The translations under genes and the position numbers were made by a program. From Podarcis gaigeae (lineage: Eukaryota): a stretch of DNA of 64,000 bases. The notes beneath the pieces are model-generated. The model was given only the letters and a program-made list of their open reading frames with translations. It did no database searches and was not told the origin of the DNA. Position 1 is the stretch's first letter. Each line of letters begins with the position of its first letter. Below are positions 930 to 25,005 of this stretch, piece after piece. The DNA lies in NCBI GenBank assembly GCA_964106915.2, contig OZ066914.1. One strand, 5' to 3'.

Positions 930-1132
930 GAAACAAGACAACGAGAGCATTAGAGTGAGTACTCTTTGTCACAATCCGCAGCTTCCCGTGGAAAATGTCA
1001 TGGTTCCCAAGTATAACACATCCCAGTGTGTTATGGTCCGTCAGCGCAATGAGGAGGGGATATTTTACATCTGTGGCTGTGTGAATGAACAGGAATGCAA
1101 TGACAAACTCATTTTTGAAAAGCACACCAATG
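930..1132 (+). CDS. TGFBR2L: TGFBR2-like, ectodomain exon (equivalent to TGFBR2 exon 3)
   Basis: tttcAG|G..AATG|GTgagt. Encodes (W)KQDNESIRVSTLCHNPQLP..SQCVMV..GIFYICGCVNEQECNDKLIFEKHTN, matching the cysteine pattern of TGFBR2 (WRKNDENITLETVCHDPK..CSCSSDECNDNIIF). Phases 2/1. Confidence 0.9.
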
Positions 1133-1274
1133 GTGAGTATTCTTCCTGGTTTCAGTCCACCTTTCCTCATCTTAGAGGAGATTATTTTTATTCAGACTGT
1201 TGGCAGTGGCAGACTTTTGGCTTTAAATTTTCAGTGGCGTCCCCATCTCTCACCTTCTGTTGTTTGTCATTGTG

Positions 1275-1790
1275 TGTGTTGTTTTTTTATTGGTTTTCAT
1301 ATAATACTTTACAATACAGATGTACCAAAGCCAACACCATTTCCTCCCCATCCCCCCCATACATTTACATTTCTATTTCCTCAATCTATCATATTATTCC
1401 TTTCTCCTTCTTCCCACTTCCCTCCGCCCCTACTCTATTTCCTCCATATTATACAATTTAAAATAATCTTTGCATTCTACAACCTTCTCAAATCATCTAT
1501 ATATTCTTATTATCTTTCCATACTAATTTTTCTTCCATCCAGTACTTCACATTTTAATCTAGGCATATTAGCATATCTTTTTTGAGCAATATTTTGCCAA
1601 ATATTCATCAAAACATTTCCACTCCTTTTTTTAATTTTTGATTCGACTGATTTCTTACTATAGCAGTTAATTTTGCCAAAATAAAATATTCATTTACTTT
1701 ACAAATCCATTCCTCCTTTGTGGGTATAGTTTGTGACTTCCACCTAACAGCAATCACTATACTAGCAGCTGTACTTGCATATAGAAAAAT
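1275..1790 (-). mobile_element. L1/Tx1-type LINE 3' fragment
   Basis: Minus ORF IFLYASTAASIVIAVRWKSQTIPTKEEWICKVNEYFILAKLT resembles the squamate L1 ORF2 C-terminus. It is followed by an A-rich 3' end on the minus strand. Confidence 0.6.
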
Positions 1791-2117
1791 TCTCCCCCCC
1801 CCCCCGTTGCTTGTCATTGTTGTGATGCACCCTGTGTTGCCCTCTCAGTGTAGCACCCAGTGTAGGCAAACTGATTGTGCTCCCCTAAATCCGCCTCTGC
1901 CGTTGGGGTGTGTGTGTTAAATCCTTTCTCCCCCACCTTCATTCCCAGTCATTCTTGCCCCTGCTGCAATTGGGGTGGAAGGGGGGAGGAAAGGACTGAT
2001 ATAAAGGCAATGTTATTTGGGTTGAAATGATTAAGTCAATTCCTAGAGAGGAGAAAAAAAATGACTCAAGCACAATATAGAAAATGGCTAGACTGAACAA
2101 TCTAACCTGGCAGATTA

Positions 2118-2377
2118 CAGTGGTACCTTGGTAGTGGGACGGCTTGGCTCCCAAACAAATCAGCTCCTGAATGCCACAAACCCAGAAGTGAGTGTTACTG
2201 TTTGCGAACGTTTTTCGGAAGCCAGACATCCAACGCACCTTCCGCAGCTTCCAATTGAGTGCAGGAAGCTCCTGCAGCCAATCAGAAGCCACACCTTGGT
2301 TTTTGAACCATTTTGGGAGTCAAACAGATTTAGAGTCGAACGGATTCTCTCGAATTTAGAGAATCAAGGTACCACTG
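2118..2377. mobile_element. Tc1/mariner-superfamily (Tigger/pogo-like) MITE
   Basis: TIRs CAGTGGTACCTTG / CAAGGTACCACTG flanked by TA on both sides. Confidence 0.85.
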
Positions 2378-4217
2378 TAGTAACACAGTTGGCCATTTAC
2401 AGCTGGGGATTTTTTTATGCTATTCAACTGAATTTTAAAAAGCTTGACTTTCTGAGCTCTGAAGTGGGGGAAGCTGGACAGAACATGAGAGGGGGATGTT
2501 TTGTTCACAACATTATAGATTCCCCAGAAAAAGTGAGAGAATGCAGTGTAAATATTCTACAGTAAATGTTCAGTGTGAAAGTAGCCTATGTTGCAAGGCA
2601 GGGAAGGAGTTCTGCCTAAGGTCTCGTTGACTGTCTGAGTAGATCAGTTAAAGTACTGTAACTGACCATTAAAGTAGACCAGTAGTAGCCAACAAGGTGG
2701 CCTCTAGATGTTGCTAGACTTGTGGGCCTTAGCCAGCACAGCTGATGGCCAGGGAAGATGGGAATTGCAGTCCAATAACATTGGAAGGGCAGCATACTGG
2801 CGACCCATGGTGGATTGATGGTTTGACTTCGGATGCATATGTTCAAGCCAGTATTATTTTAGACTTGTAAGCTAAGCCATCGCTTTCAGTGTTGACCTTA
2901 TCAGATGTTAGTTTTGCAAGGAATGGGATCTGTTTCCTGCTTATACAGTCTAAAAACAGAGATGGCCCAACCACAGCTCCCCACCTCCCAAACATTCCAT
3001 TGAAAGTTTGCCTGTCAGGCAAAAACATAAAACACCAGGCTGGGTCATGTGTGGGAAGGAACAAAATGTAGCAGTGAGATGCCTCTCCCCATCCCTCCTG
3101 CCCTAATTGTGGGTCTGCTTAGTTTGGACCAAACTGTGGTAAAGTTTGATGCAGTTTTTGAGCTGTGAAACTGAAATTTGAGTTTATCCAATGTGATCTC
3201 CTGTGAAATGATTACATAGCCTGCTTTAGGAAGAAAATCGCCCCTTAAGTCACATTATCAGCTTCAGAATCTATAGCTGAATTATAAATGGTGCTCCAGA
3301 AAATTCCACAGGCATGATGGGCAGACTATTTATTTTAATGCAACATTTAATGCAAATATTTATTTATATGTCATGTGATATTACATATAAAAATCAAGGT
3401 TAGAACTGTTGCATTTTAATTGCACGGAAAAACAAGTAAAAAAGCAACAGAAGTGACAACAAACCGTAGTTGGGAGCAAGAGAGCAATAGAATCTCAGTT
3501 GAACATGTAGGAATTTAGCATTCTGTGGTTGCTGTCATTGCACGCAGTTGATACTGTTTGCTGTGGTCTGGCTTACACATAACACTAACCCAGACCATGG
3601 CTAAGTGTGAATGTGCAAGTATTCAGATACCAGCAGAAAAAATCACAGCCACTTCACTGTTCCCTCAGTCCTCCTGCAGCCATGCTACCTTGAGTTAAGC
3701 AATGGTTTGACATGTTAAATCTGTCCAGGGAGAGAAACTTGAGCATGGGTTTGGACATAACATTAAGCCAAATCATACCTTACCTTTACAGCAGGAGGAC
3801 TAGAATGAAACAGACTTGATTTTTACTGTAAAAACACACACTTATTCAGGCTTAGCCATGGTTTGGGCTTAACATTATGTGCACACAGGGCCAGTGACTG
3901 TTCTCTCAACAAGGAATATATGAGCAACCAATTTACTGGATAAAGCTATTGTCCACTTTCTTTTTTCAACACAGACCAAGTCCACATAACAAAACGAAAC
4001 TGTTTGACAGGAAAAGCGTACTAAGAACATGTGGCCGTCGGTGGCCATCCCTTCCAGGTTTTGCCAGTATTGTGTGAGGGAAGCCCTCAAATGAATTATC
4101 ATTTTAGTTATCAATAAGTTACACTGCGGATTATGATCGCATCTTATGGCAGCCAGTGCCAAGGTCAAATGGACAGTGCAGTGGCGGCGACAAAAATCAT
4201 TGCTTTTCATTATAGAC

Positions 4218-4518
4218 CAGGGGTAGGCAACCTAAGGCCCAATTGCCTTCTCAATCTGGCCCACGGACAGTCCAGGAATCAGCGTGTTTTTACATGAGTA
4301 GAATGTGTCCTTTTATTTAAAATGTATCTCTGGGTTATTTGTGGGGCCTGCCTGGTGTTTTTACATGAGTAGAATGTGTGCTTTTATTTAAAATGCATCT
4401 CTAGTTTATTTGTGGGGCATAGGAATTTGTCCATTCCCCAACCCCATATAGTCCGGCCCACCACATGGTCTGAGGGATGGTGGACCGGCCCACAGCTGAG
4501 AAAGGTTGCTGACCCCTG
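4218..4518. mobile_element. Non-autonomous hAT element with 8-bp TSD
   Basis: Ends CAGGGGTAGGCAACC / GGTTGCTGACCCCTG. TSD TTATAGAC at 4210-4217 and 4519-4526. Internal 64-nt direct duplication. Confidence 0.88.
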
Positions 4519-7500
4519 TTATAGACAGTGCATTTTTCCTGGAGGGGCTGCAGGGATACACATACCCCTAAACAATTTGTGAATCTTTGTATTTTTGTCC
4601 ATTTACTGTATTTCTTTTTCCCGATTTGAACTATAAAATGGTGGTTTTCTTGAGTCAAAATGAGAGTACCCCTAATTTTTTTTTAAGAAAAAAGCACTGA
4701 TTATAGATATACTGTGTGTGAAGTTTTACCTCGGGCCCTTTAGAGTTAGCAGTATGCAAAGAAACTCATATTTTCTTGGCTTCCCTGGATCATTTAAAGC
4801 AGTGGCACATTATTGTTTCAGGTTCAGCAAGGAGCATACCATATTCATTATATGCCATTTATCCTCCTACACCCTTTTGAGAGCAGACAAGGACCACAGG
4901 AAGGTGGCCAAGGCTATATTATAACTCTAAATCTACCTAATAGAGATTATATTGCTCGATTCAGAATATATCCATTGAGGAATATTTAGATGCCCTCAAC
5001 ATTTCTTGTTTCATTTGACCGTGAGGTGGGTTTTTTTCTTTCTTCCAGAACCAATTCATTTCTGGCAGAAAAAGCAGTGGGAGGCACAGAGAAATATGAG
5101 GCGATGCTTTTCCTTTTCTTTACATTTCAGCATTTGTTTTCATAGAAAACAACTGCCTGCCTGATAATTCTTCAGGCTCATTTAATGATCCCTGCTACAA
5201 GCTGATGACTTTGCAGCCCGGGAGGCAACATACTTAAGCAGCTGATGGGAATTATGTACACAGTTATTACTTCAGGGTTTGCACATAAGAGAAGTCCTGG
5301 AAAATCCTCTGAAAACAATTCTGCTTTCCATTGGATTTCACAGCCTTTAGCGATGTAGTCATACCCATCAGGTAAATCCATTAGAGAAGCAGGAGATAGC
5401 CAGGCTTCGCGCTTTCCAAAACAAACTCAAATTATATCATTTGAGGTTGATCCTGTGGTTTGAACTCAATGCCTATTTTAGAAACATTCACAGCTTAACA
5501 GAAGTTAGCTGTTGCAGATTTTTATTTTTTTGTAAACTGCCAAGTAAAACAGCCAAACGCTTTGAGTTTCTTTTTCCAGTATCTGAAGTGTAGGCTGCAC
5601 CCACTGAGGTCATGCAGCAAAGGCTTTTTGCTTAGGGGATGGCTCTTGAACTTCTCTTCCTCAGTATTATACTTGGCCAAGAATCCTTTCAAAGATTTTA
5701 TTTGAATTTCATGAGCAGCAGTGAGGAACTGCACCTATCTCTTTGCAACGGGGAGAAGAGATCATATCTCATATCTTGCCTGTATTGAAAACAACTCCCC
5801 TGGCTCCCAGCAGGTTTCCAAGTTCAGTTGAAAGTGCCAGTATTAACTCTTAAAGCCACAAGGTTTATCTTCCTAATACCTGATGGGCCATCTTCTCCCA
5901 TATCAATCTGCCCATCCACTGAGGCCTTCCTTAAGCTGGTCTCACCATCTGAAGTGTGGTGGGCAGTGACCAAAAAGAGCCCTTTTAATCTAGATCCTCA
6001 GCTTTGGGATGCCAACCTTCCTATTGAGACTCATGTAGCACCCTTATTACTCTCATTTGGCTGCCAGGCAAAATCGTTTATGCTTTCCCCAGACTTTAAA
6101 GAACCTTTAGCATCAATGGTAGCTTTATTTTTTGCAAACTTAAAATAGTTTCCATTTTTACTAGCTATCTGAATGAACTGTTCCCATTTTAGTTCATTGT
6201 GTTCGTTTGTATGCTTTCTTTTATGAATTTCATTTTTTTTAAAAAACAACACCTTTAAGCATGTGTACAAGTGCACATACATGGACCTTACTTACGGTTT
6301 ATTCAAGGATGCAGTCAGTTAGTATCCCTTAGGTGGATCTCAGCATGCAGAAACGTTGCAATGTAAACTCAGCAGTAAAGCTTGTTTCATTGCAAATACT
6401 CCCAGCTAATGGGGCAGCAGCAGGTTCACATTACAACCAGCAGGTGGCAGCAAAGAGGCTCCTGCAACAGTCTGCAGCATCTGCGAATCAGAGGTGCAAG
6501 TATTGTAAAGGTGCTATAGTTGCAAGTGCGGTTTACAAACACCCCCATCCTAGTAGTGATTTCAGCCACTAGGAACTGCAGAACAGGATCTTTTCCACAA
6601 AGATTAGCCAGCCTGTTCTGCAAGCATTCAGCATGGTTATAATCCAGCTCTTACAGACCTGGCCTAATAGCAATCAATCTGCTCCGTAATCTTCACTTCA
6701 CAAGGAAAGATAGTGGTGCCCAGTCTTGGTCTCTTTCCTGACCAGAGCTGCACTTCCAGGGCCACTTGGCTGCAGTGTGAAACAGGTTCTTACTTGCTGA
6801 GTGTGGCTGGGGAGGAGAGGGAGCATCTGTGGCAGCTCCACCCAGCAGGCTCCTTTCACAGTGATGCATTTTGTGCTTCTTATGAGTGCATTAACAGCAC
6901 CCACCACTGGGTGCTTTCTGTTTTCCCCCCTACAGAGATTTACCTATTTAGGTGCCTCTGGGAAATTAAGAGGTCTCAGCAGCACTGCACCTAGCTGCCC
7001 CATGATAAAATAAAAAAATCTGTGAGTTAAAAGGGTGTGGGGAGGGTGTGGAAGGAGTCTTGGGGGAGTCAGAACCTCTGGACCACGCTCCCACATTGCC
7101 GCTGGATGGACTGCTGTTATTTAGCATTCCTTCCTTAGCTTAATCTGATCATTGATAGCAGGGCCATTTATATTTTCAAAAGACCTAGAGCAAAGGAGTT
7201 ACCAGCATTTTCCACCCTTGGTCTCTTGGGTTTATGATCTAAGAGCTGAGTTTTTGTAAAGACTATTCCTTTTAGTCGGCAAGATTTGGCTCTGTCATCT
7301 TGAGTGCATATGAAGCTGCTTATACCGCCGTCAGATCTACAGTACATATATACTAATTAACAGCACATCTCAAAAGTCTCCGTCATGTGCTTTACCCAGT
7401 GAGTTGGGGCTTCTTTCCAGATCAGATCTCCAGACTATGTCTGAGAACAAAACAACTAACTCACCAAATTGTAAAATGTGGGGGAAATTTGCCTGTTTCC

Positions 7501-7738
7501 TAAATGCATGGTAAAGTGCCGCGATACAGATGACTGCGGCTGACTTGGTTGGAATCTTTGAGTGGCTGCAGCTCTGCCGATAGTTGCTGAGAATAAAATG
7601 AAAAGCAGAGGGGGACCTGATACACCATCTTGAGCCCCTAGGAGGAAAGGTGGGATATACATGTAATAATAAACAAATAATAAATTAACATTTGCCACGT
7701 GTTACGACTGCATGGCTATTTTTTCCAAAATCGCACTA

Positions 7739-7968
7739 CAGTGGTACCTCTGGTTACATACTTAATTCGTTCTGGAGGTCCGTTCTTAACCTGAAACTGT
7801 TCTTAACCTGAAGCACCACTTTAGCTAATGGGACCACCTGCTGCCGCCGCACGATTTCTGTTCTCATCCTGAAGCAAAGTTCTTAACCCGAGGTAATATT
7901 TCTGGGTTAGCGGAGTCTGTAACCTAAGCGTATGTAACCTGAAGCTTATGTAACCCGAGGTACCACTG
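7739..7968. mobile_element. Tc1/mariner-superfamily MITE
   Basis: TIRs CAGTGGTACCTC / GAGGTACCACTG with TA TSD and internal AACCTGAA repeats. Same family as 27457-27666, which is in the opposite orientation. Confidence 0.88.
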
Positions 7969-8039
7969 TATATATTAAAGAAAACAGACAACCAAGCAAA
8001 CCCATGGTAGAAAATGTGAGCACTTGAAATGCTGAGCCC

Positions 8040-8195
8040 TAGGATACAGGAGAAGGTACACAGGAAGCTGCCTTATTCTGAGTCAGACCATTGGTCCATC
8101 TAGCTATTGTCTGCACTGAGTGGCAGCATCTCTCCAGGGTTTCTAGACAGGGAACATTTCCAGCTCTAACTGGAGAAGTTGGGGATTGAGCTGTG
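8040..8195 (-). mobile_element. tRNA-headed squamate SINE fragment (Squam3-like)
   Basis: GGAAGCTGCCTTATTCTGAGTCAGACCATTGGTCCATCTAGC motif, shared with copies at 17915-18100 and 63740-63912. Confidence 0.6.
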
Positions 8196-8306
8196 ATTCT
8201 TCCCCACAAGTTCATTCTTCGCTAAGAAAAGCTGTTCATGTTGACTAACTGGCCTGTGCGGAGATGTTCTTGCTGTATATTATTTTTCGCTTTCCTTTCG
8301 CCATAG

Positions 8307-9118
8307 GATACTCCATGCTACAAAGCAAAGAAATAATTCCCGTGGCAGCCATCAGCCTGTTGCCCCCACTGCTGGTTGCCATCATGATAACGGTGACCTT
8401 CTATCTCTGCCGAACCCACAGGCAGAGGAGGAGAGCCAAGGAATGGCCCCAGAAACAAGTCCAGCACCGCCCACTGCCTGAACCCAGCAGAGCCACCAGC
8501 TATGACGAGATACTATCTGTCAAGATCGACCACCGCGTCGCCCTGAGCACAGCCTGCGCCAACAACATCAACCACAACACGGAACTGTTGCCTATCGAGC
8601 TAGATGAGCGAGTCGGGAAAGGGCAGTTTGCAGAAGTCTGGAGAGCAAAGCTGAAGCATGCCTCTTCGGGACAGTACGAGACGGTGGCAGTGAAGATTTT
8701 CCCCTGCGAGGACTATGCTTCCTGGAAAAACGAAAGCCAGATCTTCAGCGATGCCAACCTCAAGCATGACAGTATCCTTCAGTTCCTCACGGCAGAGGAG
8801 AGGCACTCTGGACTCCAGAAAGAATACTGGCTCATCACGGCCTACCACAGCCAGGGAAACCTCAAGGATTATTTGTCCAGGAATGTTCTGAGCTGGAGGG
8901 ACTTGCAGAAGATGGCTGGCTCTCTAGTGAGTGGTGTGGCTCACTTGCACAGCGACTACACTGCTTGTGGCAGTCCAAAGATCCCCATCGCCCACCGGGA
9001 CATCAAAAGCACCAACATCCTCATTAAGAACGAACAGGAATGTGTGCTCTGTGATTTTGGGATTGCTCTGAGGCTGGATCCAGCCTTAAGTGTGGAAGAT
9101 TTTGCAAACAGCGGACAG
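8307..9118 (+). CDS. TGFBR2L: TGFBR2-like, transmembrane + juxtamembrane + kinase N-part exon (equivalent to exon 4)
   Basis: catAG|GA..CAG|GTgagt, 812 nt. [27 protein letters not shown], then [40 protein letters not shown] and ANSGQ. Confidence 0.97.
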
Positions 9119-10281
9119 GTGAGTGCTGTAGAATGAAACCAGCAGAGCAATCCATTCTGCTTGATGGAAAGTAGAAAGATCTTAGCTTCTTTCATGCGCT
9201 AGCCATGCAAAGAGTTCTGCGCACTGTGCAAGGGGCAGTGGGGGCTGTGCCACTGGCCCCACCCCAAAACATCATTTGATTTACCAATCCCAGCTTCCAT
9301 GTGTTGAGCATGGACATTTGCATAGTGGAAGCCTGCCTATATAGGTTTTCCATGTGATCTAGAACCCTGCGTGAATGGGGATCCAGGTCACATGAAAGCC
9401 TACTGCATCTGTAGAGCATGACGCTCATAAGCTTCCCCTGGACAGCCTGTTCAGCATGTAAATCTTGGGGGTGGGTCCAGAAGTGCTGCCTGCTGCCCTT
9501 TCCATGGATGGAGGGCCCTTCTATGTGTGAAGGGGGTCCTTCAGAATGGCAAATATAACCCACAATAGCAGACAGCAGGCAGTATGAAAAAGCTCTGAAA
9601 AGGCAACGCTGCTATGGAATTTGCTGCAGGCATTCAGCATGTTCCATATACAAACATGCAACTATGATTTAAGAGAGCGCCCTGCTTGTTGGTACACAAT
9701 TGGCTTGGAATCACCTTTGTTGCTGAATGACAAATAGCTACTGTGTTCCGGGTTCTAGAGGTTATCTTGTTTATGGCAGCTAGTTTGTAATCAAAGGCCG
9801 GGGCTACTAGATCTTCCCAAGCTCTTTTTGCATTCAAAATCTAACACCACTGCAATACTCAATGTCTTTCCCCTCATGGTGGAGAAGCAGCAGGGAGAGG
9901 AGTGATTTGAGCAGAAAGCTGCCCACTGGACAGTAGAGTGGTACTTTCCTCCATTCAAACTCACAGCTGCCCACAGCACCTTTTGGTTTGAATGAAACAA
10001 ACAGAAAACCCAGGAAAGAAGCTCTCAATTATTGTCACATCTAATTTGGGCCTTGGTTCCCATCCCAGTAAGGGCTGGTAAGTTTAGAGAAGATTTTACG
10101 GTCACTTTCCTGGCTACCCTATACTTGGACAAAAAACTAGAGATAAAGGGGTGGAGCAACTCTGGAGCACAAAAGGTCCAGTCTGTATCGCAGATCTTCT
10201 GCATTGCAGCCTCCTTTTAACTTGGAATCACCACAGCTTCTCTCCTCCACCCCTTCTAACATCTACTCAATTTATGGCCAG

Positions 10282-10423
10282 GTGGGCACTGCCAGATATA
10301 TGGCTCCTGAAGTTTTGGAATCTCGAGTGAATCTCGAAGATCTGGAGTCCTTCAAACAAATGGATGTTTATTCCATGGCTCTGGTTTTATGGGAGATTGC
10401 CTCCAGGTGTGACGCCATAGGAG
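10282..10423 (+). CDS. TGFBR2L: TGFBR2-like kinase exon (equivalent to exon 5)
   Basis: ccAG|GTG..GGAG|GTaagt, 142 nt. Encodes [47 protein letters not shown]. Confidence 0.97.
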
Positions 10424-11319
10424 GTAAGTCTATACCAGCAGAGTCTTCTGTCTTGCAAGCCCCACTTTACAGGTCCACTGGGCAAAACAAACATGGCTGT
10501 TCCAACATGCCAGAGGGAGGTGGGAGCAAACCTTAGTGCAGAGAAGCTAACCTATTGCCATTCCACCCTAGATGCTGATGAACTAAAACTCCCAATATCT
10601 CTGACTGCCAGTCATGTAGGTGGAGGCTAATGAAAGCTGTAGTTCAGCAAACATCTGGAGGGCCACAGGTTAGCCACTCCTGCCTTAGCAGAAGAACGCA
10701 TTTCTCAGATGGAAGGAGGGCATCTCTTGCAAAAATGGGTCTCAGGTAGCAAGGCCGGGAAAGGCTCCTGGCCTCAGGACTCAAAAAGCCACACTGCCCA
10801 TAGCCAAGGCAAATAATCCAAGGATAGATGGGCAAATGACCTGTCTCAATTGCATGGGGATTTGTGTGGCTCCACAGCGGAGATTGTATTGCCTCTCCAC
10901 TAGGAAATGATTGTACCATTTTATTATGTTAAAAGAGGCGTCACTAAGAGCCTGCTAAAATGAAAGAAAATACCAAGAAGATTGAAGGAAGCGTTTGGCC
11001 ACTAAAGGAACCCACGTTTCATCAGCAGTAACAGAAATTCATTAACGGGGATTAATTTATTGCTTTAGCATTTCCCGCTACACAATCAGGCTTTGAACTG
11101 GTAGCAGCAATGCTAACCTGTCCCGCTAATTCAAAGTGATTTGGGCTTGTGCTGATGCTAATTCTCATGAGATGCAAGTCCAGACGCTAGGATGTGGAAC
11201 AGTCTACAAGGGCAGTGTATGTGAAACCTATGGGCAAATGTGTTAACAGGATGGTGGGGATGGGGAGCTATACAGCACTGGTGCAATATGGATTCGGGTT
11301 CATTTATCTGTCATTACAT

Positions 11320-11510
11320 TTATATCCCACCTTTGCTCCAAGGAACTCAAGGTGGCATGCAAAGTTTTCCCCCTTTCCACTTTTATCCTCAAAACTAAGC
11401 TCAGGTTAGGCTGAGAGGCAGTGACTGGCCCAAGGTCACCCTGTGAGCTTCATGCTTGAGTAGGGACTGAACTCCTGGTCTCCCAGGTCCACCACCCTAA
11501 CCACTACAAC
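11320..11510 (-). mobile_element. CORE/MIR-like SINE
   Basis: GAGGCAGTGACTGGCCCAAGGTCACC core motif and a reversed tRNA-like head. A related + copy is at 47640-47850. Confidence 0.6.
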
Positions 11511-12004
11511 AAGCAACAAATACTTAGCGGCCTCTGCTGTGTCCTACAATGTGGTCCATTAAGGAAGTACCTGCTGTACATCCACACACACATCCCTCTG
11601 CATCTCCACATCTCATACACAACCTGGTTGGGCTGTAGCTGCTACTACTTTAAACAGTTTACAGGTTTTAAAACAAACTGTGGGCATCAACCAGCCAATA
11701 CCGTGCTGCCTATACTAAATGAAGCAAGCTTCTTTTCTGAAACATACATGGCATTTCGACAAATCTTTAAACGTGCTGCCTGAATTTAAAAGTGTCCCCT
11801 GTTCACAACCTGGCTGCCAAGCTTTGTTATCAATGAACAGTTCTTCACCAGGTACAGCTGCAAGCCGCCACTAGAGGTAGTTTTATTATCCGTTTCCTGG
11901 TGAATGTTCTCGGTGGCACCACAGCACTGCCCTGACAAGTACATAGTCAATGTGTATCTAAATTGCACGCACATCTAACTAACATCAACACTGCTTCCTT
12001 GCAG

Positions 12005-12132
12005 AGGTGAAGAACTATGAGCTACCATTTGGATCAAAGGTCCGGGAGCAACCCTGCATGGAGGTTATGAGAGATGTTGTATTGCATGGTCGAGGGCGTC
12101 CAGAGATACCTGGCAATTGGCTGGTGCATCAG
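12005..12132 (+). CDS. TGFBR2L: TGFBR2-like kinase exon (equivalent to exon 6), GC donor
   Basis: gcAG|AG..CATCAG|GCaagt, 128 nt. Encodes [43 protein letters not shown]. Confidence 0.93.
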
Positions 12133-12556
12133 GCAAGTACAAAAAAAGAAGGTAAAATTTATGGCTTTGCCACGAGACCACCTTCTTTTGCCTACTCCTC
12201 TTCTTGAACTGTTTCCATTCAAGCTTGTAACTGAGAACTGGTGCCCGAGTTTGTTTTCTTCTTTCCTCCTCATCCGTTTTGGTTTCTTTTCTTTTTAGAT
12301 CATAAGCCTGAGGGCAGGGGCAGTCTTATTTGTTATTGATCTCATGTTATTGATCTCTGGAAGCCCTTCCTCTGAAGAGCAGGGCAAAAATGCTTTCAAT
12401 AAATATTTCTGAGCAGCAGACCTAGAAGTGTGTGGCTACACAAACAACATTTCCAGAAAACTTGAAGCCCCCTCCCCTGCCCCCCAAAACACTGCCCCCC
12501 CCCAGGTTTCTGAGGCAAAATGGAGACTTTGGGGGAAATTGAAATTAACATACTTA

Positions 12557-13055
12557 CCGTATTTTTCGCCCTATAGGACGTACTGGCCCATAGGACGCAC
12601 CTCGTTTTTTTTTGGGGGGGGGGGAGGAAATGAATTTTTAAAATTTATTTTCTCCCCCCCCCCCAGCCATGGGGCTGGGGCGGAGGAAGCCCAAGCTTCC
12701 CCCGACCCCAGCCCACAGAACATGCTGCTGCCCGCAAGCCTTGCAAGCCCGCGGGAACTCCCCCCGGGCGCGCAAGGCTTGCGGACATCTGCCCGAAGCA
12801 CGGGGCATGTTCCGCAGCGCGCCCCGTGCTTCTGGCTGCCGCCCCAAGCCTTGCGCACCCGCGGGAACTCCCGCCGGGCTCGCAAGGCTTGCGGATAGCT
12901 TCCTGAAGCCTGGAGAGCAAGAGGGGTCGGTGCGCACCGACGCCTCTCGCTCTCCAGGCTTCAGTGAAAGCCTGCATTCGTCCCATAGGACGCACACACA
13001 TTTCCCCTTCATTTTTGGAGGGGGAAAATTGCATCCTATAGGGCGAAAAATACGG
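12557..13055. mobile_element. Young GC/CpG-rich Tc1/mariner-superfamily (Tc2/pogo-like) MITE with internal hairpins
   Basis: Perfect TIRs CCGTATTTTTCGCCCTATAGGA / TCCTATAGGGCGAAAAATACGG with TA TSD and a subterminal CCCATAGGACGCAC repeat. Confidence 0.9.
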
Positions 13056-14112
13056 TACTTTCTTATCAAACCTAACATGTTTTAACATAAAATGCACCCT
13101 AACTTGGCACAGTACAATTTTATATTTGGAATATTTCTGAAATGCAGAGAGTTGCCCTCTGTATGTTTACTCATAACTAATACTGATTCTGTTTGGTGGC
13201 ACTCTCAAAGTACCTATGATTACAGTCTCAGAAGAATTAATTTTTACGTTTTGTACAAGCACCGCTGCAAATGCACGCAGTATCAAAGAGCGCAAGCTGT
13301 GAACTGCTACCGTATGCTGCCTTGTACATTTTCTTACCTTAGTTTTTTTGCAATTTGAAGAGGAAAAAATAAAAGCTAAAAGCAGAAATCAATAACTTTG
13401 TATTAAACAAAGTGAAGTGTGCTTGGCGGACAAAAATGGCCTCATATAGTCACAGTCTTCTCATGAACAGTTCTCTTCTCCTCTTAAGGCGTTGTCCTGA
13501 GAGATGGGTCCCCCCCCCACTTTCCATTATAACACTGCCCAAGACCCTTCCAGTCAATTTTTAGTTGCCCCAGCAAAGATGGCGCTGGCTCCGGCAGTAA
13601 TTGCACATAAGCTAACTGGACAAATGAGGCAGGACACAACCTTCTGTTTCCCCTGCCTGGTCAGCTCTATTGGGCTAGTAAAGCAGATCATCTGCTTCAT
13701 CTGTTTGACTGGCTTCCCATACTGGCTGCGGAGGAAGCGTCTTCACTAATCACCAATATGTGCCTGAAAGAAATCAATATTTATTGCAGCTTTCCCAGTA
13801 ATCATCAATATATTTATGTGTGTAATAACATCAAGCAGAGTTTATTTTTTGGGAGGTGAATGGAATACAGTGCCCCTTAAAGAGGGAAAAGGAAAGCACA
13901 CACAAGGTCAAAAATCATGTTACTGAGCCAGTAATGCACACTGATTGCTCTTCTTTTTACTTCAAAAGTGGGCAATAATTGCAGTGAAGCAGAAGGAAGA
14001 GCACGGAGGAAAGTATCAGAAATACAACGCATGTCCTTATTTCGATGCCCTGTTCGTTTCGTTCCCCCTAGATTTGAGATTGCTAACTTCCCAGCTTCCT
14101 TCTTAATTTCAG

Positions 14113-14349
14113 GGAATGCATTTGCTGTGTGACACCATCACAGAATGCTGGGACCATGATCCTGAAGCCAGACTCACAGCTCACTGCGTGGCAGAGCGGT
14201 TCAACCTGATGGTGCAGACGGACTGTGATGACATCCTCAACAACAACAACAGCAGCAGCAGTAGCCATGGCAGCAGCCTTGGTGATGAGGCAAGCAAAAT
14301 GGGTTGCCCAATAGATGAGAATCAAGGGAGTGACAGGAATATCCAATGA
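14113..14349 (+). CDS. TGFBR2L: TGFBR2-like terminal coding exon (equivalent to exon 7)
   Basis: tttcAG|GGA. Encodes [33 protein letters not shown], stop TGA at 14347-14349. Confidence 0.96.
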
Positions 14350-17416: not shown

Positions 17417-17494
17417 CTAGTTTGTGTCTGCTGGTTGATTTTGTACGGCAGGCATTCTTTTCCAAAGAGGGTTATAATAAACCCAGCCCTCTCC
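17417..17494 (-). CDS. OSBPL11: OSBPL11 coding exon 13
   Basis: tttcAG|GGA. Encodes GEGWVYYNPLWKRMPAVQNQPADTN, stop TAG (human GDGWVYHKPLWK..QPAE). Confidence 0.93.
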   Translation of the reverse strand, partial: GEGWVYYNPLWKRMPAVQNQPADTN

Positions 17495-17914
17495 CTGAAA
17501 TTCAAACAAAGAACAAGATTACTCAGTTCAGGAAAATTATTCATGTAAATTCAATGGCGAATGCTAATTGTCCTAAGAACTGAGTAGTGCACTACTGCCC
17601 AGAGACTGACCATAACCATAATATCTGAAACCACAATTTGATCCTTCTCACTATCCACAGTTTAAACAATCCACAGTTGCCTGAGTTTGGATACCTTCAG
17701 GAAACCTACAAACTTCAAATCAGAAGCTGAATTTACAGGTACAAAACTGGAGAGTTGGAAGGGGACTATATATGCCTGAGGCTCACTATAACTCCCTTAC
17801 CAGAAAACCAGAGCTTTCTAATACATCTAGGGACACAGGTGACCATTGTTCTCACCCTGGCATCTGATTGGCTACTGTGAGAACAGGAAGGAGTAGACGG
17901 GCTCTTTTTACGTT

Positions 17915-18100
17915 CTTATAGGAAGCTGCCTTACACTATGCCAGACCATTAATCCATCTAGCTCAATATTGCCCACATTGTGTGGCAGTGGCTCTGCAAG
18001 GTTTCAGATAAGAACATTCCCAGTCCTACTTGGAGAAGCCAAGGATTGAATTTAGGCCCTTCTGCATACAAGTCAGATGCTCCAACGCTGAACTACAGAT
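17915..18100 (-). mobile_element. tRNA-headed squamate SINE (Squam3-like)
   Basis: Same body motif as the 8040 copy, plus a reversed tRNA-like head GGGATTGAA..CCTTCTGCAT..CTCCAACGCTGAACTAC. Confidence 0.65.
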
Positions 18101-18618
18101 GAACTGAGTCAGTGCATAGTCTGGCCCTTACAAGAGAAGAAAGCCTAATTTTGGACTTCCTCCCTAGGCGCTAGAGATTCTTCACCATAGCGGCTAATAG
18201 GAGATCTCTAGTTCGGTACTTCCTAGTACAAATCTCAGCCACAGACTCAGACAAGTCACAATATCTTATGCTTGCAAGATAAGGATAATAATGCTAACCT
18301 ACAAGACAGGATTGTTGCAAATGTGACTTATTAATATGAAGCCAAAACTACAGTTCAGTTCCAAAAAGAAGCATATACATTGAGCATGTAGAGAAACTGA
18401 AGTGAAGACATTAATCTATAAAATAAAGTGGCAAGAAAAATGTTGCAGCAGAGGCTATTTATATTCAACTATCTTCTGTATATATGTGAGCTTTTTAAAA
18501 AAAAATGCAAAGAACTAAGAAGAGAAATATTTTTTATATTTACAGAGGCAAGCAGTAGCCCCTATGACATGCTGGAAGGTTGGCATTTTAAATATTTAAC
18601 TTGTGTTGAGGTACTTAC

Positions 18619-18772
18619 ATCTTTGACGAAGTACTTAGTTTGCCACGGTTCTCCTGTCTCAGCCCGGAGTCGTTCTTCATTTCTCTGCCGTTCCTCAAGT
18701 GCTTTCTTATGCTCTGTCGCCTTATCAATGTCCCCGTCCCTCAGAGACTCTGTCACATGTTGCCACAGCTTC
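18619..18772 (-). CDS. OSBPL11: OSBPL11 coding exon 12
   Basis: 154 nt with AG/GT ends. Encodes [51 protein letters not shown]. Confidence 0.96.
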
Positions 18773-19265
18773 CTGAATTTAAAAAGGTACAGCTGACTTC
18801 AAGCTCTCTTAGCAGGTCAGCATGTTGTCAAAACTTGCAGCACATGAGCAGAATTCACAGCTATAATCTTGGCTCCTCTCAGATTAAGAATAAGGTGAAC
18901 TGAAAGGCAAGAAGGAACTGCCACCGTATCCTGGAAGTGCTTTCTCTCCAGAAAAAATTATGAGGAATTTGCAGTGCAATATAGAATGTAGCTGTTACCC
19001 AACTGAAGAATAAAAATGCATGGCAGCAGTGGAGAACCTCAGTGCAGCCACATTTAACGAAAGTGCCAAACCATTCTATGAAGAACCTCTAATTCTCTGG
19101 GCCATTTTTTGAGAGAGCCTCCTATGCTCATTTTGGTTTTCCTAACACATTTAAAAAAAACAAAAAACCACTTTGGCTCCCTCAAATATGAATGAAAAAG
19201 AAATGCAGGCATCTAAGTGTACCCAGTAAGTGTTAAATGTGAAAACGTAAAAGAACTTCTCTTAC

Positions 19266-19448
19266 CTGGACTCAAATGCCCCTTGTTTCTCAATGGGTCG
19301 GACTCGTTTTCTTGTGACAGACAGCTTTGTCAAGTCCATGCATTTTGTCTCTCCATTGCTGTAGGTGAATTCAAGGATGCTATTCCATTCCCCTTGCACT
19401 CTACAGACAACAGTGTTGGTAGCGTTCTGTTTCACCTCACCAGTAACC
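19266..19448 (-). CDS. OSBPL11: OSBPL11 coding exon 11
   Basis: 183 nt with AG/GT ends. Encodes [60 protein letters not shown]. Confidence 0.96.
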
Positions 19449-20018
19449 CTAAAAAAACAGCATTCAAAAAGTAAAATGTGACAATAGCTGGATTAGCCCA
19501 CGCTCTGTATTCATGTAGGGTTACAGCTCACATCGTGTTATTTATTTTTAGAAACAGAGGAATACATGCAAATTCTAGTACAGCAAGATTTGAGTGCTCG
19601 TCATCTTCTTTGCAAATGTGTTTTAAAAAGCTACATTTCTAATGTTTAACTGTGCAGCTAGTTCAAAACAGTTTTCAAACAAGAAACAAAATAGTAAACT
19701 TAGGAGCCCACTAATTATTTTTGCACTCATCTCTTGCATTTTACTTCTTTAAAAATCATTGTTTTCTGTTGATGGCAGCTCAAGAATTTCATGCCATGGA
19801 GGGTTGAGAGAGAGAGATCGAGATCAACTTTTAAATATGTGGCTTGCCAATTAATACTGAACGACAAAGTTTAATGGGAACTTCACCAAATTTGTGAAAT
19901 CTAGCGTATCAAAAAAGGAGCATTTTGATTACAATTCAATGCTAGATGGGTTTCTGGTGGTCTCCTCTAAGCTTTCTAAGATAGGAATACATTAGACTGG
20001 ATAAACGTTCCTCTGCAT

Positions 20019-20155
20019 CAAGGGTGGCTACCCTGTAGCCCTCTGGACGTTGCTGGACTCCAACTCCCATCAGTCCCAACCAGCATGGCCAATGGTCAGG
20101 CATAAGGGGAGCCGCAGTCCAACAACCTCTTGAAAGGCCATTGGTTGGCCACTGC
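20019..20155. mobile_element. Short quasi-palindromic hAT-like MITE (dispersed family)
   Basis: GTTGCTGGACTCCAACTCCCATC..GGGAGCCGCAGTCCAACAAC. Degenerate relatives lie near 2680-2810, 10535-10684, 57350-57420 and 61782-61924. Confidence 0.6.
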
Positions 20156-20837
20156 TACCTTAACATGCTGATTACAGAGAAGTATTGCAGATTTTGGATT
20201 ACAGAGAAATATGCAGTTTTCCCAACATCCTGTTAAAAATACCAATACCGACCAATACTAAATATGAAATAGTGTCTAGATATTATATTCTATGTTAAAA
20301 CTCCCTGAAACCAGATGTTTCCCTAGCATTATTTTAAACCTAAGCAAATGCGAATTGTACTATGGAAGCCAACTTTTGCCTCAGCAATTCAGCTGTGCAC
20401 AATACAGTTCCGCTCAATAAAAAGTATTTAATAGTAAAGTTCTCTGAAAAATCTATAGTAACATTATTTTCATTACAATATCAACTAGCAGCAGAGTCAC
20501 TATGACAGCATTTTCTCTCTTGTACTTATGACTACAAAAAGCTCATACAAACACTTATCCAAAGTCCCATTGGAAATTGAAATGACAGACAAGTGCTTTG
20601 ATGTATTTGATTTAATGGAAATAGTTATTGGCCATCTTTCAAGGCAAATGCTCTCCCAAGGCACTTGATATAGAAGCATAAAATTAGGAAGCACAATTTC
20701 AATAGCACAACACAATACATAAAATTCTGCTATTATTTCCCACTACTTCCCTGCCAGGGGCCAGAGTTCAATCAATCTTCTGCAAATATTTAACTAGTTA
20801 AATAAATCAAGGTGGTTTTAGATGCTGAAAATCTAGC

Positions 20838-20910
20838 TGAGATTCCTGCACTGCAGGGGGTTGGACTAGATGACCCTGAGGACCCCTTCCAACTCTACAG
20901 TTCTCTGAAG
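20838..20910 (+). mobile_element. CR1-type 3' tail fragment
   Basis: CCTGCACTGCAGGGGGTTGGACTAGATGACCCT..CCCTTCCAACTCTA. Confidence 0.7.
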
Positions 20911-21212
20911 ATCCTTTTCGAGTTACTGAGACTCTTTGACTTGAAAGGGACATTTCAACAAGCACCAAAAGCATTTCAGAAAAGGTTTAGCTTCCTTTTA
21001 AATGTCCTTCTCAAGTTTTCAGAACAAAGTGGTGAAGTGGCTTGCTTAGATCAGTAGCAGCAGCAGCAGCAGCATACATGGACTTCATTTTTACAACATC
21101 CGGCTCGAAAGAGGAAGATGAAAAGATGCCATAAGAATTCCCATAAGAAAACTTATCTGCAATTGATTCTGCACTACATTACACAAAACGCCTGCCAACC
21201 ATAAATACTTAC

Positions 21213-21399
21213 CGGTGAAGCTTGCCACCATAGAATGGTTTGGTATGGAAAGTAATACTTGCAGAGTATCCCGTTTTTGCACAATTAACACTGACTTTTC
21301 CTCCCAGTTCTACCCAAGGGACAGTCAGAATTGACCGAGCATATGCACAAGGCAGAGAAAACGTGTACTCCTCTCCATGGTCCAAGAGACTTAAAATAC
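21213..21399 (-). CDS. OSBPL11: OSBPL11 coding exon 10
   Basis: 187 nt. Encodes [63 protein letters not shown]. Confidence 0.97.
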
Positions 21400-23229
21400 C
21401 TGCGAGACAAGAGAAATTCACATCAGCTCCACAATAACAGAAACAAATAATTCATACTCCCCATACTTATAGTAGAGGATGCAGAGAACCAGGACATTTT
21501 TATCATTTAGTATTATCAATGATATATCACTTACTTAAGGTGACAACAGCCCTTTTCTTTTAACTCACAGAGGAGCTACTTGCACAAACAGTATAGGGTT
21601 GTATCCAGCCAAGCTTGTTTGTTTATAAAAATATTTATATACTGCTATTTCATAAAGTTATCAAAGTGGTTTACAACAAAAGTACATAAAAGCATGCAGC
21701 AAAAACCATATTAGAAAGATTAAAATCAGTTGCTGTTCCGTTAGTACAAGGACTTTTGCCTGTGCAATATAACTTCTTCCCCCTGAGACGACACCCCCCA
21801 CACCTGCAAATATGCTCTGGAGGGTTGGGAGATCCCTTGGAATAGATGGAAAGAAGTCCTACTGCGTATGTGGAAATCCTTGCTCTAGCAGGACTTTGTT
21901 GTATATGTTAGGAAATTACGATCATTAATTGTAAAGACAGAAGATATACCTCCCGTTTTCCTGTGAGTGATAAAATTCATTGGGTTCATCTCCATTTGCA
22001 TTTTCTACTTAAGAGGCCAACATAGTTTAGAACAGTAAAGCCTATGACCCTTCCCCCCCCCCCCCGCATCACAATTCCTCTACATTTCTGAGGCTTGCTG
22101 GTATCTATGTCTTACTGTGACTTGTCAAACAACCCTACATTACAAAAAATGTCTCCACTGTATAATGTTGAGCAACAGAGTAAGATTAGTTTTGGGTGCA
22201 GGATGGACGGCATCACCTCTCACAAGGAACTAGAGCAAAGCAACAGTTTCAGAAAAAGGGGTCTGTGCGCCTGGAATTCTGTAGGCAATATCTGAAATTA
22301 ACAGAAATGTGCAATGCAAAAGAACCAAAGAAGAAACTGGAATGCATACTAGGGCCAGGACATAGGCATCATAAAAGAAGGCACAAAAGACATCATCTGG
22401 AGACAAACTTTTTTATCATTTTCACGTGCTACAAGATTTCCGAACTTGGTCCCAGCTGCTCCCAAAACAACTGAAGTCCACTGTAAGTTCTGACACGACT
22501 GGAGCCTGTCTTCTTCTCTGACCAAGAGACCAAAGAGAGGTTGCCCTTGGAAGGAGCACCTAATCCTGTAGTCTGTTGCATCAGCAGCTGGCTGGGTCAG
22601 AGGGCATAAAAGCTCAGCTGCCCTTGGGTGGTAGGCTTGCCACCAAAAGGGTGACACTAAGGGGGTTCATTCCTCATAAGGTGTCTGTGCTTCTTGCACA
22701 GGGTGAGAACCTGGACGGTGAATTGTATGACTGGAGAAAGTTGCCAGATTCTCCCAGGGCAAGAGCCTGCAATGTGAATATGAGGCAGGACTGGAGTGTG
22801 GCAGGGACCAGGTGGTTTGTACATGCTTTTAGTAAAGCTGTTCATAACCAGCTAGATACCTTCTGGGATAACTGATGGGTAGTAGTAAATTTTTATTGTT
22901 GGGCTGTTATTTATATCATGGGCTTGTGAAGAGCTGAACATGGTTAGGGTGAGAAATGGCTATGGGAGACAAGTTATCACAGAAGTCGAGGGAGAGGCTA
23001 TTTACACCTTGATTCTTGCTCCCACCTCTCCCATGGCTGGGTTCCTGGTGGTTCATCTGCTGTGGCAATCAGCCTGTCCATGGTGCATATGAGACCTGGG
23101 TGGGCAAGCTGGGAGTTGATCTGACTCAGCTCTGCCCACCTGACTACAGCATCAGCACAAGCTAAAGAGATAGGGTGGCAATGAAGTGGATGTGGCCCAT
23201 AGTACTTCCATCTACATCACCAGAAAAAA

Positions 23230-23720
23230 ACCCTGTCTTGGAGCTGGTTGTTAGGGCCTGTACCTGTTGTTGGGCCAAGAAGACAGTCAACAAGGGTCAC
23301 TGCTGGTTTACCATCTACTCTGCTGCTCACCAGCTTATCTGACCAAGCTGATGGGCATGGTGATGGAGGAACCCCTAACAATTGTCCTGGATGATGTCAA
23401 CATCCATGCAGAGGATGCCTCAGGTGTTCCTTTTCAGGGCCTCAGGGCCTCCATGACACCCATGGGGCTGTCCCAAGTTATCATTGACCCAACACACTGG
23501 CCAGGGAACACCCTCAATCTGGTCTTTGCTCCAGATGGAGGAAGGGGTTTACTGGAAGTAGCAGGGGGCTCATGGTCAAACCACTTTCTGGTGAAGTATG
23601 GTCTAGTGGCTTTGATCCACCCCTGCAGGGGTGGGGTACTGAATTGGATGGCCCACCCCCACCACTGGAGATTAATGGAATCCAATGGGTGCCTAAATGC
23701 CCTGGACCTTTCCCCCAGTA
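23230..23720 (+). mobile_element. Decayed L2/CR1-clade LINE endonuclease fragment
   Basis: ORF 23267..23725 has [34 protein letters not shown], a degenerate APE-domain pattern (GDFN/PTH..G.TLD/SDH). Confidence 0.7.
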
Positions 23721-24140
23721 AGTAGAGCAGACAATCTGTTTGAAACTTAGTTGCACTGTTGAACAGTAAAGCACAATGAGCTCTTGACATGGCCATCCCT
23801 GAGCATCTCTGGCACCATGGAGCCCTGTCTTCACAGGTTAGATCAGTGTTTCCTAACCAGGTGCCATATGGTCCCTGGGGGCCCCCAGGATATTCCAGGG
23901 GGCCACAGGTCAAAATCTCACAAATGGGGGGCCACAGCACACAGCTGCCCCCTCTTGGCTCTCCATGGACAGGCCACAGGAAGGAAACAAGGTTGGAAGG
24001 GGGCCACGGTTGGAAAAAGACGAGAAAACGCTTGGTTAGCTGACAAGTAAAGCACAAGTGGTGAAAGACACACTGTGAAACCGACCAAACATGAGGGAGC
24101 CTATTGCGGCAAGTGGCTAATTGCAGCGTTCTGCACTTAC

Positions 24141-24630
24141 CTTCACCAACCATAGTCACTCCTATTGACATTCCTAGGAATTTACTTTTAGTCCAGACGT
24201 GAGCATTGACACACATATTCCTTTCTACACATTCGGCATAAAACCCTGAGACTGGAGGGTGATGGGACACTTGTTCCGCTACAAATCTGACTGTGTGGTA
24301 GTCCGACTCTGCTTGTTCCTGTGACTCTTCTGAGACAGTCCCTTGCTCAGAGAGGGAATGGGACGAAGAGTTACTACTCGTGTCGGACGGTACTCGGCTC
24401 CTCCACGAGCAGTGAAACGTTTCCCCGATGATCGGGTTGTATGGCTTTTTCGCTATCGCCCCTTTGCGACCTTCATGAAAGGAAGTGAGGTAATATTCAA
24501 CAAAGCGGATCATCCTCTCCTCGGGGCTGGCGCCGCTGGAAATCGCAATGAAGAGATCTGGGTGGGACATGAAGTCAGCATACATTTCCAGCAAAGAGCG
24601 TTTCTCTAATATAAAAGTGGGGAGTACCAC
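24141..24630 (-). CDS. OSBPL11: OSBPL11 coding exon 9 (ORD core)
   Basis: 490 nt. Encodes [46 protein letters not shown], including the OSBP signature EQVSHHPP. Confidence 0.98.
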
Positions 24631-25002
24631 CTGAAAAGAAAGAGAGGCATGAAGCACACCTAAAGCTTCGAATTGCAAGTGATGGGATAAGGGTATAACG
24701 CTTTTCTAAGCAAAGAGCACAACCTTAACTAGCGCAAACAAGAGGAAGACATGTTACTTTGTGTATTCTTAAAACACTATGAAATACTTCCTCCTTCTCC
24801 TCTTCTTTAGGTGTTCCAACACAGTGGAGGGTGGCTGTCTGAAGCTAAGGCATCACTTATACTTATCGGGGCTCCCTGAGTGTTCTAGAACCCTGATTTT
24901 CCAGGGCTCTGAAATGTACACCAAGCCTCCACAAGTGCAGGAAGCTTCCCATTTCAGTCCATGGTGGTCAATAGGAACGACAACTTGGGGTGAGATGGAG
25001 CT

Positions 25003-25005
<3 letters not shown>

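What the first reader, a model, noticed from the sequence alone, without database searches (positions are those of the whole stretch)
930..14349. Intact second TGF-beta type II receptor: probable TGFBR2 ohnologue with no known human counterpart
Seen: five exons with TGFBR2-type boundaries (142- and 128-nt kinase exons), no stops or frameshifts, and all catalytic motifs ([18 protein letters not shown]). The ectodomain, juxtamembrane region and tail are far more diverged than expected for a TGFBR2 orthologue. Established: human TGFBR2 lies near OSBPL10 on 3p, OSBPL11 is its paralogue on 3q, and humans have one TGFBR2. Inference: TGFBR2L-OSBPL11 is the whole-genome-duplication sister block of TGFBR2-OSBPL10, retained in lizards. 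It would give a little-studied extra arm of TGF-beta signalling. TGFBR2-like annotations exist in other non-mammals, so the gene is under-characterised rather than unknown.
Basis: partly seen in the sequence, partly recalled or inferred. Interest (0 to 1): 0.75.

Follow-up and report, generated by a model that had tools for sequence, protein, structure and literature searches.

The report
Lizard TGFBR2L, known second TGF-beta receptor
This lizard locus holds an intact, spliced second TGF-beta type II receptor gene, TGFBR2L, an old duplicate already described as kept from sharks to birds and lost in mammals; it likely signals much like the ordinary receptor through a differently shaped binding surface.

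Summary
The five exons splice into an open frame with all kinase motifs. Two more exons upstream complete a 574-residue receptor, 571/574 identical to a Podarcis record named 'TGF-beta receptor type-2-like'. RNA contigs of relatives use the junctions, including a GC donor. The genome has a separate TGFBR2 on C24, upstream of an STT3 gene and an OSBPL paralogue. The window protein groups with shark-to-bird TGFBR2L (100/99), outside TGFBR2. PMC5979292 (2018) and PMC13187141 (2026) already report this 2R paralogue and its loss in mammals; chicken and Xenopus genes are named TGFBR2L. Residual interest: the ectodomain changed early and then stayed conserved, with clade-wide swaps at ligand contacts (F30W, I53Y/F) and no acid at position 118. 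The genome also keeps a fourth TGF-beta ligand. I found no paper testing its ligand or partner. The scan's notes held no earlier TGFBR2L finding.

The parts
930..1132 (+). TGFBR2L exon 3: second half of the ligand-binding domain. Exons 1 and 2 lie before the window at G000:C1:93,479,997-93,480,048 and 93,495,167-93,495,317.
   Evidence: exon 2-3 junction spliced in 4 of 4 runs; only two matches to this exon in the genome, itself and C24
8307..9118 (+). TGFBR2L exon 4: transmembrane helix, juxtamembrane region, kinase N-lobe to DFG
   Evidence: 66% identical to the C24 TGFBR2 over the 177 kinase residues searched
10282..10423 (+). TGFBR2L exon 5 (142 nt): activation loop, GTARYMAPE
   Evidence: same length in C24 TGFBR2; spliced in RNA contigs
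12005..12132 (+). TGFBR2L exon 6 (128 nt), followed by a GC donor at 12133-12134
   Evidence: joint skipping 1980 bases in 2 of 4 runs; C24 TGFBR2 has 128 nt and a GT donor
14113..14349 (+). TGFBR2L exon 7 coding part: kinase end, Asn/Ser-rich tail, stop codon
   Evidence: AATAAA at 14361, 14445 and 14743; an RNA contig covers 14273-14997
17420..59423 (-). OSBPL11, tail-to-tail neighbour used as the synteny marker
   Evidence: 13 tblastn pieces covering residues 1-760 of a Podarcis oxysterol-binding protein; best named hits of its large exon are OSBPL11

Best explanation
This is TGFBR2L, an intact and spliced paralogue of TGFBR2 that separated from it before sharks and bony vertebrates split, likely in a whole-genome duplication, and it likely works as a second TGF-beta type II receptor that binds TGF-beta dimers and activates a type I receptor and SMAD2/3. 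Shown here: seven exons, an open frame, splicing, a complete kinase, a TGFBR2-type ectodomain, a second TGFBR2 elsewhere in the genome, a separate clade, and a duplicated OSBPL neighbour. Inferred from the established TGFBR2 pathway: ligand binding, an active kinase, transfer to ALK5 and SMAD2/3. Inferred from sequence only: the binding surface was remodelled early and then held, so affinities for TGF-beta isoforms and the grip on the type I receptor probably differ from TGFBR2. The receptor is probably partly redundant with TGFBR2. My odds: identity as TGFBR2L about 0.97, origin by genome duplication about 0.85, TGF-beta to SMAD2/3 signalling about 0.7.
For: Open frame and motifs. Pfam ecTbetaR2 E 2.4e-40. 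Kinase scores 513 bits against TGFBR2 structures and 288 against ACVR2B. Tree: 18-row TGFBR2L clade 100/99, 10-row TGFBR2 clade 99/96 holding the C24 gene, shark sequences in both, four invertebrate deuterostomes outside. Forcing the window into amniote TGFBR2 costs 238.8 log units: KH and SH p 0, AU p 0.043. C24 order TGFBR2 (+), STT3 (+), OSBPL paralogue (-). Spliced contigs. Listed coding differences to relatives are mostly silent: 8 of 9 and 14 of 17 codons. HRD and DFG kept in 87 of 87 clade records. Position 119 is E in 78 and D in 6 of 87. Published as a 2R paralogue lost in mammals.
Against: Nothing here measures binding or signalling. Three of ten ligand-contact positions checked differ across the clade or in lacertids: F30 is W in 79 of 79, I53 is Y or F in 79 of 79, and D32 is N in this lizard and 7 of 79 records. 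Position 118 is acidic in 0 of 85 against 30 of 30 in TGFBR2. These could mean a different ligand or partner. The single lamprey sequence cannot be placed (AU p 0.26 and 0.33), so the round of duplication is not fixed. Only one neighbouring gene pair was tested, and the second STT3 gene lies on C28, not beside the window. The AU value for the main test is only just under 0.05, and the same test on 35 rows did not finish.
Confidence: 0.78

Rival explanations
1. TGFBR2L is the preferred receptor of the fourth TGF-beta ligand (TGFB2-like, 'TGFB2B'), forming a ligand-receptor pair that mammals lost together.
For: This genome has four TGF-beta genes; the one on C29 matches 'transforming growth factor beta-2 proprotein-like' and forms its own clade with coelacanth, amphibian and fish sequences, 92/92. 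PMC5979292 links the two duplicates as 'synergy evolution'. No mammal is named in either clade among the hits listed.
Against: The fourth ligand keeps the ordinary high-affinity fingertips: R25 and R94 in 94 of 94 records parsed out of 111, so it should also suit TGFBR2. Among 120 listed of 131 hits no bird, crocodile, turtle or frog member of that ligand clade is named, although all four groups keep TGFBR2L; this is a word-based search, so absence is weak.
Confidence: 0.15
2. TGFBR2L binds TGF-beta but recruits ALK5 poorly, so it acts as a dampener of TGFBR2 signalling or signals through another type I receptor.
For: Position 118 is Q, H or P in 85 of 85 and position 24 is K or R in 59 of 78, against acidic in 30 of 30 and hydrophobic in 29 of 29 in TGFBR2. 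A modelling paper lists V22, F24, P25 and D118 as type I receptor contacts (PMC12785921). The Xenopus locus is used as a transgene landing site in exon 4.
Against: The kinase is under strong constraint (237 of 300 identical to shark), which a pure decoy would not need. The N-terminal alignment is ambiguous: a hydrophobic residue sits one place earlier in 64 of 78. A frog TGFBR2 with E119L still binds ligand (PMC13187141), so single swaps can be tolerated.
Confidence: 0.2
3. The two receptors come from a segmental duplication in an early vertebrate rather than from a whole-genome duplication.
For: Only the receptor and the OSBPL pair were shown to be duplicated together; the STT3 paralogue is on a third contig; the lamprey sequence is unplaced.
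Against: The split falls after invertebrate deuterostomes and before sharks, the window of the two genome duplications; the copies lie on different large contigs; two papers assign it to 2R.
Confidence: 0.1
4. The gene is a fast-evolving TGFBR2 orthologue, a recent lizard duplicate or a decaying copy.
For: None beyond low identity to TGFBR2.
Against: Separate C24 orthologue; window as sister of the C24 gene rejected, AU p 0.0006; orthologues from shark to bird; open frame, splicing and mostly silent differences.
Confidence: 0.01

Closest known systems
TGFBR2L / tgfbr2l ('TGFBR2B' of Zheng et al. 2018, PMC5979292; 'TGF-beta receptor type-2-like' in NCBI)
   Same: It is this gene: 571 of 574 residues identical to the Podarcis muralis record P0003; same clade as the shark, coelacanth, amphibian, crocodile and bird records; chicken TGFBR2L is on chromosome 7, where ZNF148, SNX4 and OSBPL11 are listed together.
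   Different: Lacertid records have N at the D32 position (4 lacertid records among the 7 of 79 with N) and an Asn/Ser-rich tail. It has a single ligand-binding domain, unlike the doubled one in African lungfish. Zheng's accession table could not be read, so equating their TGFBR2B with this clade rests on the stated species range.
TGFBR2 (TGF-beta receptor type II)
   Same: Same domain order, twelve ectodomain cysteines, same exon phases and 142/128-nt exons, kinase 208 of 300 identical to the genome's own copy; activation-segment serine and tyrosine present (their role as phosphorylation sites is recalled).
   Different: Ectodomain 35 of 101 identical; W30, Y53, N32, Q118 and no hydrophobic residue at 24; different juxtamembrane region and tail; GC donor in intron 6; neighbours are a sorting nexin and OSBPL11 rather than STT3 and the other OSBPL.
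ACVR2A/ACVR2B, BMPR2, AMHR2 (other type II receptors)
   Same: Same general receptor plan and kinase family.
   Different: Kinase scores 288, 287 and 196 bits against ACVR2B, ACVR2A and BMPR2 structures versus 513 for TGFBR2; the ectodomain matched only TGFBR2 chains, 12 of 12 hits. AMHR2 was not compared directly.

Membership tests
TGFBR2 subfamily of type II receptors | TGFBR2-type ectodomain (PF08917) with twelve cysteines | tested here: met
   E 2.4e-40 over 109 of 111 positions; alignment to solved ectodomains
TGFBR2 subfamily of type II receptors | Single transmembrane helix and intact Ser/Thr kinase closest to TGFBR2 | tested here: met
   helix 148-179 in a low-confidence model (mean pLDDT 56.8)
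TGFBR2 subfamily of type II receptors | High-affinity binding of TGF-beta1/3 and activation of ALK5 and SMAD2/3 | not testable with these tools
   Needs binding and reporter assays; only contact residues were compared
TGFBR2 orthologues | Groups with amniote TGFBR2 in the kinase tree | tested here: not met
TGFBR2 orthologues | Lies upstream of STT3B and OSBPL10 | tested here: not met
   That arrangement (gene names from recalled human order) fits the C24 gene:
TGFBR2L | Member of the second gnathostome clade with shark, coelacanth, amphibian and bird 'TGFBR2-like' | tested here: met
   100/99 in the kinase tree; 91/100 in the ectodomain tree
TGFBR2L | Coexists with a separate TGFBR2 in the same genome | tested here: met
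   C24:44.26-44.30 Mb, exons 2-7 open
TGFBR2L | Linked to OSBPL11, SNX4 and ZNF148 | tested here: met
   OSBPL11 named; upstream PX-domain exon and a zinc-finger gene with only a weak ZNF148-like match at 0.86, so those two names are inferred from order
TGFBR2L | Absent from mammals | tested here: inconclusive
   No mammal named among 87 clade records of the 120 listed of 577 hits; 7 of the 87 are unnamed. Mammalian genomes were not searched. Stated in PMC13187141 and PMC5979292.
Whole-genome-duplication ohnologue pair | Split dated between invertebrate chordates and sharks | tested here: met
Whole-genome-duplication ohnologue pair | Part of a multi-gene duplicated block | tested here: inconclusive
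   One neighbouring pair fits (OSBPL); STT3 paralogue on a third contig; no wider survey done

The most novel reading that the evidence does not exclude
Non-mammalian jawed vertebrates run a second, biochemically distinct TGF-beta receptor: TGFBR2L rebuilt its ligand-contact ridge (W30, Y/F53) and its type I receptor contacts (no acid at 118, no hydrophobic 24) soon after the duplication and has held them since, so it reads TGF-beta isoforms, including the fourth ligand that lizards keep, or picks type I partners differently from TGFBR2. Mammalian TGF-beta biology would then be a reduced version, and chick, frog, fish and lizard work that counts one type II receptor would need re-reading.
Probability: 0.35. 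Interest if true: 0.55.

Novelty: already known. Interest (0 to 1): 0.22.

Why it matters
The gene, its 2R origin and its loss in mammals are in print, so the lizard copy adds a species, not a concept. [quoted passage not shown]

Tried and rejected
Whole-protein fold: low confidence (mean pLDDT 56.8, pTM 0.47), not used beyond the domain layout; no fold search run. AU test on 35 rows with the mixture model did not finish; replaced by 18 rows under LG+G4. Placing the lamprey sequence: unresolved. Naming the C24 OSBPL gene and the upstream sorting nexin and zinc-finger genes directly: family level only. Run search: no listed holder was on record as RNA; evidence for expression rests on the spliced joints in the laid contigs, and tissues are unknown, so nothing can be said about regenerating tail. 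Single-cell run X21 showed no listed exon joint. A true dN/dS was not computed; only listed differences were classed. Loop length before position 119 rejected as a clade marker: 2 of 30 TGFBR2 records share it. A doubled ligand-binding domain rejected for this locus. Paper searches for the D32N/E119Q mutants and for a knockout phenotype gave nothing relevant in the listings. One bioRxiv hit was a false match on 'Tgfbr2 LoxP'. Eight earlier scan notes on other ohnologues were about other genes and were not used.
Full report
Observation. The five exons lie at 930-1132, 8307-9118, 10282-10423, 12005-12132 and 14113-14349 on the + strand and join into 507 codons without an internal stop, with the glycine loop, [15 protein letters not shown] and GTARYMAPE in place. 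The window is G000:C1:93,496,001-93,560,000. Exon 1 begins at C1:93,479,997 and exon 2 spans 93,495,167-93,495,317, so the whole gene has seven exons and encodes 574 residues: signal peptide, ectodomain, one membrane helix, kinase, tail. It differs at 3 of 574 positions from a Podarcis muralis record and at 6 of 574 from a Lacerta agilis record, both named 'TGF-beta receptor type-2-like', so the source is a lacertid lizard. Intron 6 starts with GC. One UniRef model (P0002) runs out of frame at the start of exon 6 and ends in unrelated sequence.

Expression and constraint. Of four runs laid on the window, one contig of 1601 bases (X1) spans all five exons, X3 shows the three kinase joints including the GC one, raw reads of X23 show the exon 5-6 joint four times, and X21 shows no listed exon joint. 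The exon 2-3 joint appears in 4 of 4 other runs. These runs come from related organisms and unnamed tissues, and most are only guessed to be RNA; the removed introns are the evidence. Among coding differences that one search printed (40 of 401 rows were shown), 8 of 9 codons in X1 and 14 of 17 in X3 are silent. This is a partial count, not a dN/dS.

Second copy and neighbours. Searching the genome with the kinase part of exon 4 gave 19 matches, of which one besides the window is close: C24:44.285 Mb, 66%. The ectodomain exon gave exactly two matches, the window and C24. The C24 gene has exons 2-7 in one open frame with the same phases. Downstream of it lie an STT3 gene at 44.71-44.73 Mb and, on the opposite strand at 44.77 Mb, the closest paralogue (69%) of the window's OSBPL gene. 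The window's OSBPL gene is OSBPL11. The human order TGFBR2-GADL1-STT3B-OSBPL10 is recalled, and the names STT3B and OSBPL10 are inferred from it; GADL1 was not looked for. Upstream of the window gene lie a PX-domain gene and a zinc-finger gene on the minus strand, inferred to be SNX4 and ZNF148. These three markers are listed together on chicken chromosome 7 (PMC11507135, passages) and pig chromosome 13 (PMC11657392, passages), and chicken TGFBR2L is on chromosome 7 (PMC10432839, passages).

Phylogeny. On 313 kinase columns and 35 rows (chosen from 59; the 24 left out were redundant, partial or long-branched rows, all placed in the faster tree), the window protein lies in a clade of 18 with chimaera, shark, sturgeon, bichir, gar, milkfish, coelacanth, lungfish, amphibian, tuatara, turtle, crocodile and bird sequences (100/99). 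The C24 gene lies in a clade of 10 with shark, sturgeon, coelacanth, tuatara, bird and mammal TGFBR2 (99/96). Amphioxus, Ciona, crinoid and acorn worm fall outside both (names). On 18 rows, forcing the window into amniote TGFBR2 lowers the log-likelihood by 238.8 (KH and SH p 0, AU p 0.043) and forcing it beside the C24 gene by 253.1 (AU p 0.0006). The one lamprey sequence fits three placements equally, so first versus second duplication is open. Vertebrate ACVR2, BMPR2 and AMHR2 were not in the tree; invertebrate ACVR2 and BMPR2 served as outgroups, and scores against solved kinases (513 bits for TGFBR2, 288 for ACVR2B) separate the subfamilies.

What is in print. PMC5979292 (abstract and passages; supplement unreadable) reports a 2R duplicate 'TGFBR2B' in elephant shark, coelacanth, gar, teleosts and 'tetrapods except mammals', includes a lizard in its receptor tree, and reports a second TGFB2 in elephant shark, coelacanth and python. 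[quoted passage not shown] Xenopus tgfbr2l exon 4 is a transgene landing site (PMC10511863, passages; bioRxiv 2025.03.05.640691, one passage), which suggests but does not prove that loss is tolerated. Expression mentions: frog wounds (PMC12738165, passages) and tilapia skin (PMC12072769, passages). In searches (listings of a library limited to openly licensed papers; 30 of 42 and 15 of 55 hits were listed in the two broad ones) I saw no test of TGFBR2L binding or signalling, and in the passages read the OSBPL10/OSBPL11 synteny was not spelled out.

How it likely works. By established TGFBR2 biology, the ectodomain binds the fingertips of a TGF-beta dimer and the kinase phosphorylates a type I receptor, which activates SMAD2/3. 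HRD and DFG are kept in 87 of 87 clade records and VAVKIF in 82 of 87. The ectodomain is conserved within its clade: 62 of 101 residues match the shark orthologue, more than the 55 of 101 between the C24 gene and shark TGFBR2, while the branch between the two clades is 1.43 changes per column. That is the pattern of early remodelling followed by constraint. Using human numbering from solved chains (L27, F30, D32 are named contacts in PMC8461249, passages; segments 27-32 and 49-55 in PMC12785921, passages), I sorted the 120 listed hits into 87 TGFBR2L and 33 TGFBR2 by kinase score (16 teleost calls were close; two of them were confirmed). F30 is W in 79 of 79 parsed TGFBR2L and F in 30 of 30 TGFBR2; I53 is Y or F in 79 of 79 and I in 30 of 30; D32 is D in 69, N in 7 and E in 3 of 79, and D in 30 of 30; the lizard has N. 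That D32 and E119 pair with ligand R94 and R25 is recalled. Position 118 is never acidic (0 of 85) and position 24 is hydrophobic in 3 of 78, against 30 of 30 and 29 of 29; these are type I receptor contacts in a modelling study. Caveats: records are not independent, the TGFBR2 set is mostly birds and mammals, an acid at 117 or a one-residue shift could compensate, and a frog TGFBR2 with E119L still binds.

The ligand side. A family search gave 44 matches; among the 11 stretches and 6 loci I read, four genes have the TGF-beta signature, on C1, C17, C3 and C29. The C3 gene has K25, I92, K94 like TGF-beta2; the others have R25, V92, R94 (residue rule). The C29 gene is 'TGF-beta-2 proprotein-like' and forms its own clade; the names TGFB3 and TGFB2 for C1 and C3 are partly recalled. 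Its fingertips are ordinary, and no bird, crocodile, turtle or frog member is named in the listing, so a private pairing with TGFBR2L is possible but not favoured.

Verdict. A real, intact, expressed gene, correctly read by the first stage, but a known one: TGFBR2L. Novelty: already known. Interest 0.22, carried by the untested question of what its remodelled surface binds.

Noticed in passing
G000:C29:12,092,608-12,096,456 (L076): A fourth TGF-beta ligand gene ('TGF-beta-2 proprotein-like'), with high-affinity-type R25, V92, R94; reported for python, coelacanth and elephant shark in PMC5979292.
   Followed up: partly
window 12133-12134: GC donor in intron 6, used in RNA contigs; the paralogue on C24 has GT. 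Not checked in other species.
   Followed up: partly
G000:C1:93,495,167-93,495,317 (exon 2, L085:7267-7417): D32N at a ligand-contact position, shared by Podarcis and Lacerta records and seen separately in Pleurodeles, Mixophyes and Hoplias.
   Followed up: partly
G000:C17:81,913,227-81,914,298 (L074): The lizard TGF-beta1-type gene has R31 and S34 where the other three ligands have K31 and H34, near the receptor-binding fingertip.
   Followed up: no
window 14233-14280: Asn/Ser codon run in the receptor tail whose length differs among lacertid records and RNA contigs.
   Followed up: no
window 12555-13057 and 7737-7970: Two short elements with 24-base terminal inverted repeats starting and ending in TA, typical of non-autonomous DNA transposons; the second draws very high read depth from copies elsewhere.
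   Followed up: no
window 60977-61432 (-): A 151-residue open stretch that looks like the end of a LINE reverse transcriptase (recalled resemblance, not tested).
   Followed up: no
G000:C1:93,473,000-93,480,000: The sorting-nexin gene and TGFBR2L start head to head about 6-7 kb apart; the start of the nexin is inferred from an ORF.
   Followed up: no
protein lists: Many TGFBR2L and fourth-ligand proteins are named plainly 'TGF-beta receptor type-2' or 'TGF-beta-2 proprotein' in public databases, which can hide the paralogues in expression studies.
   Followed up: no
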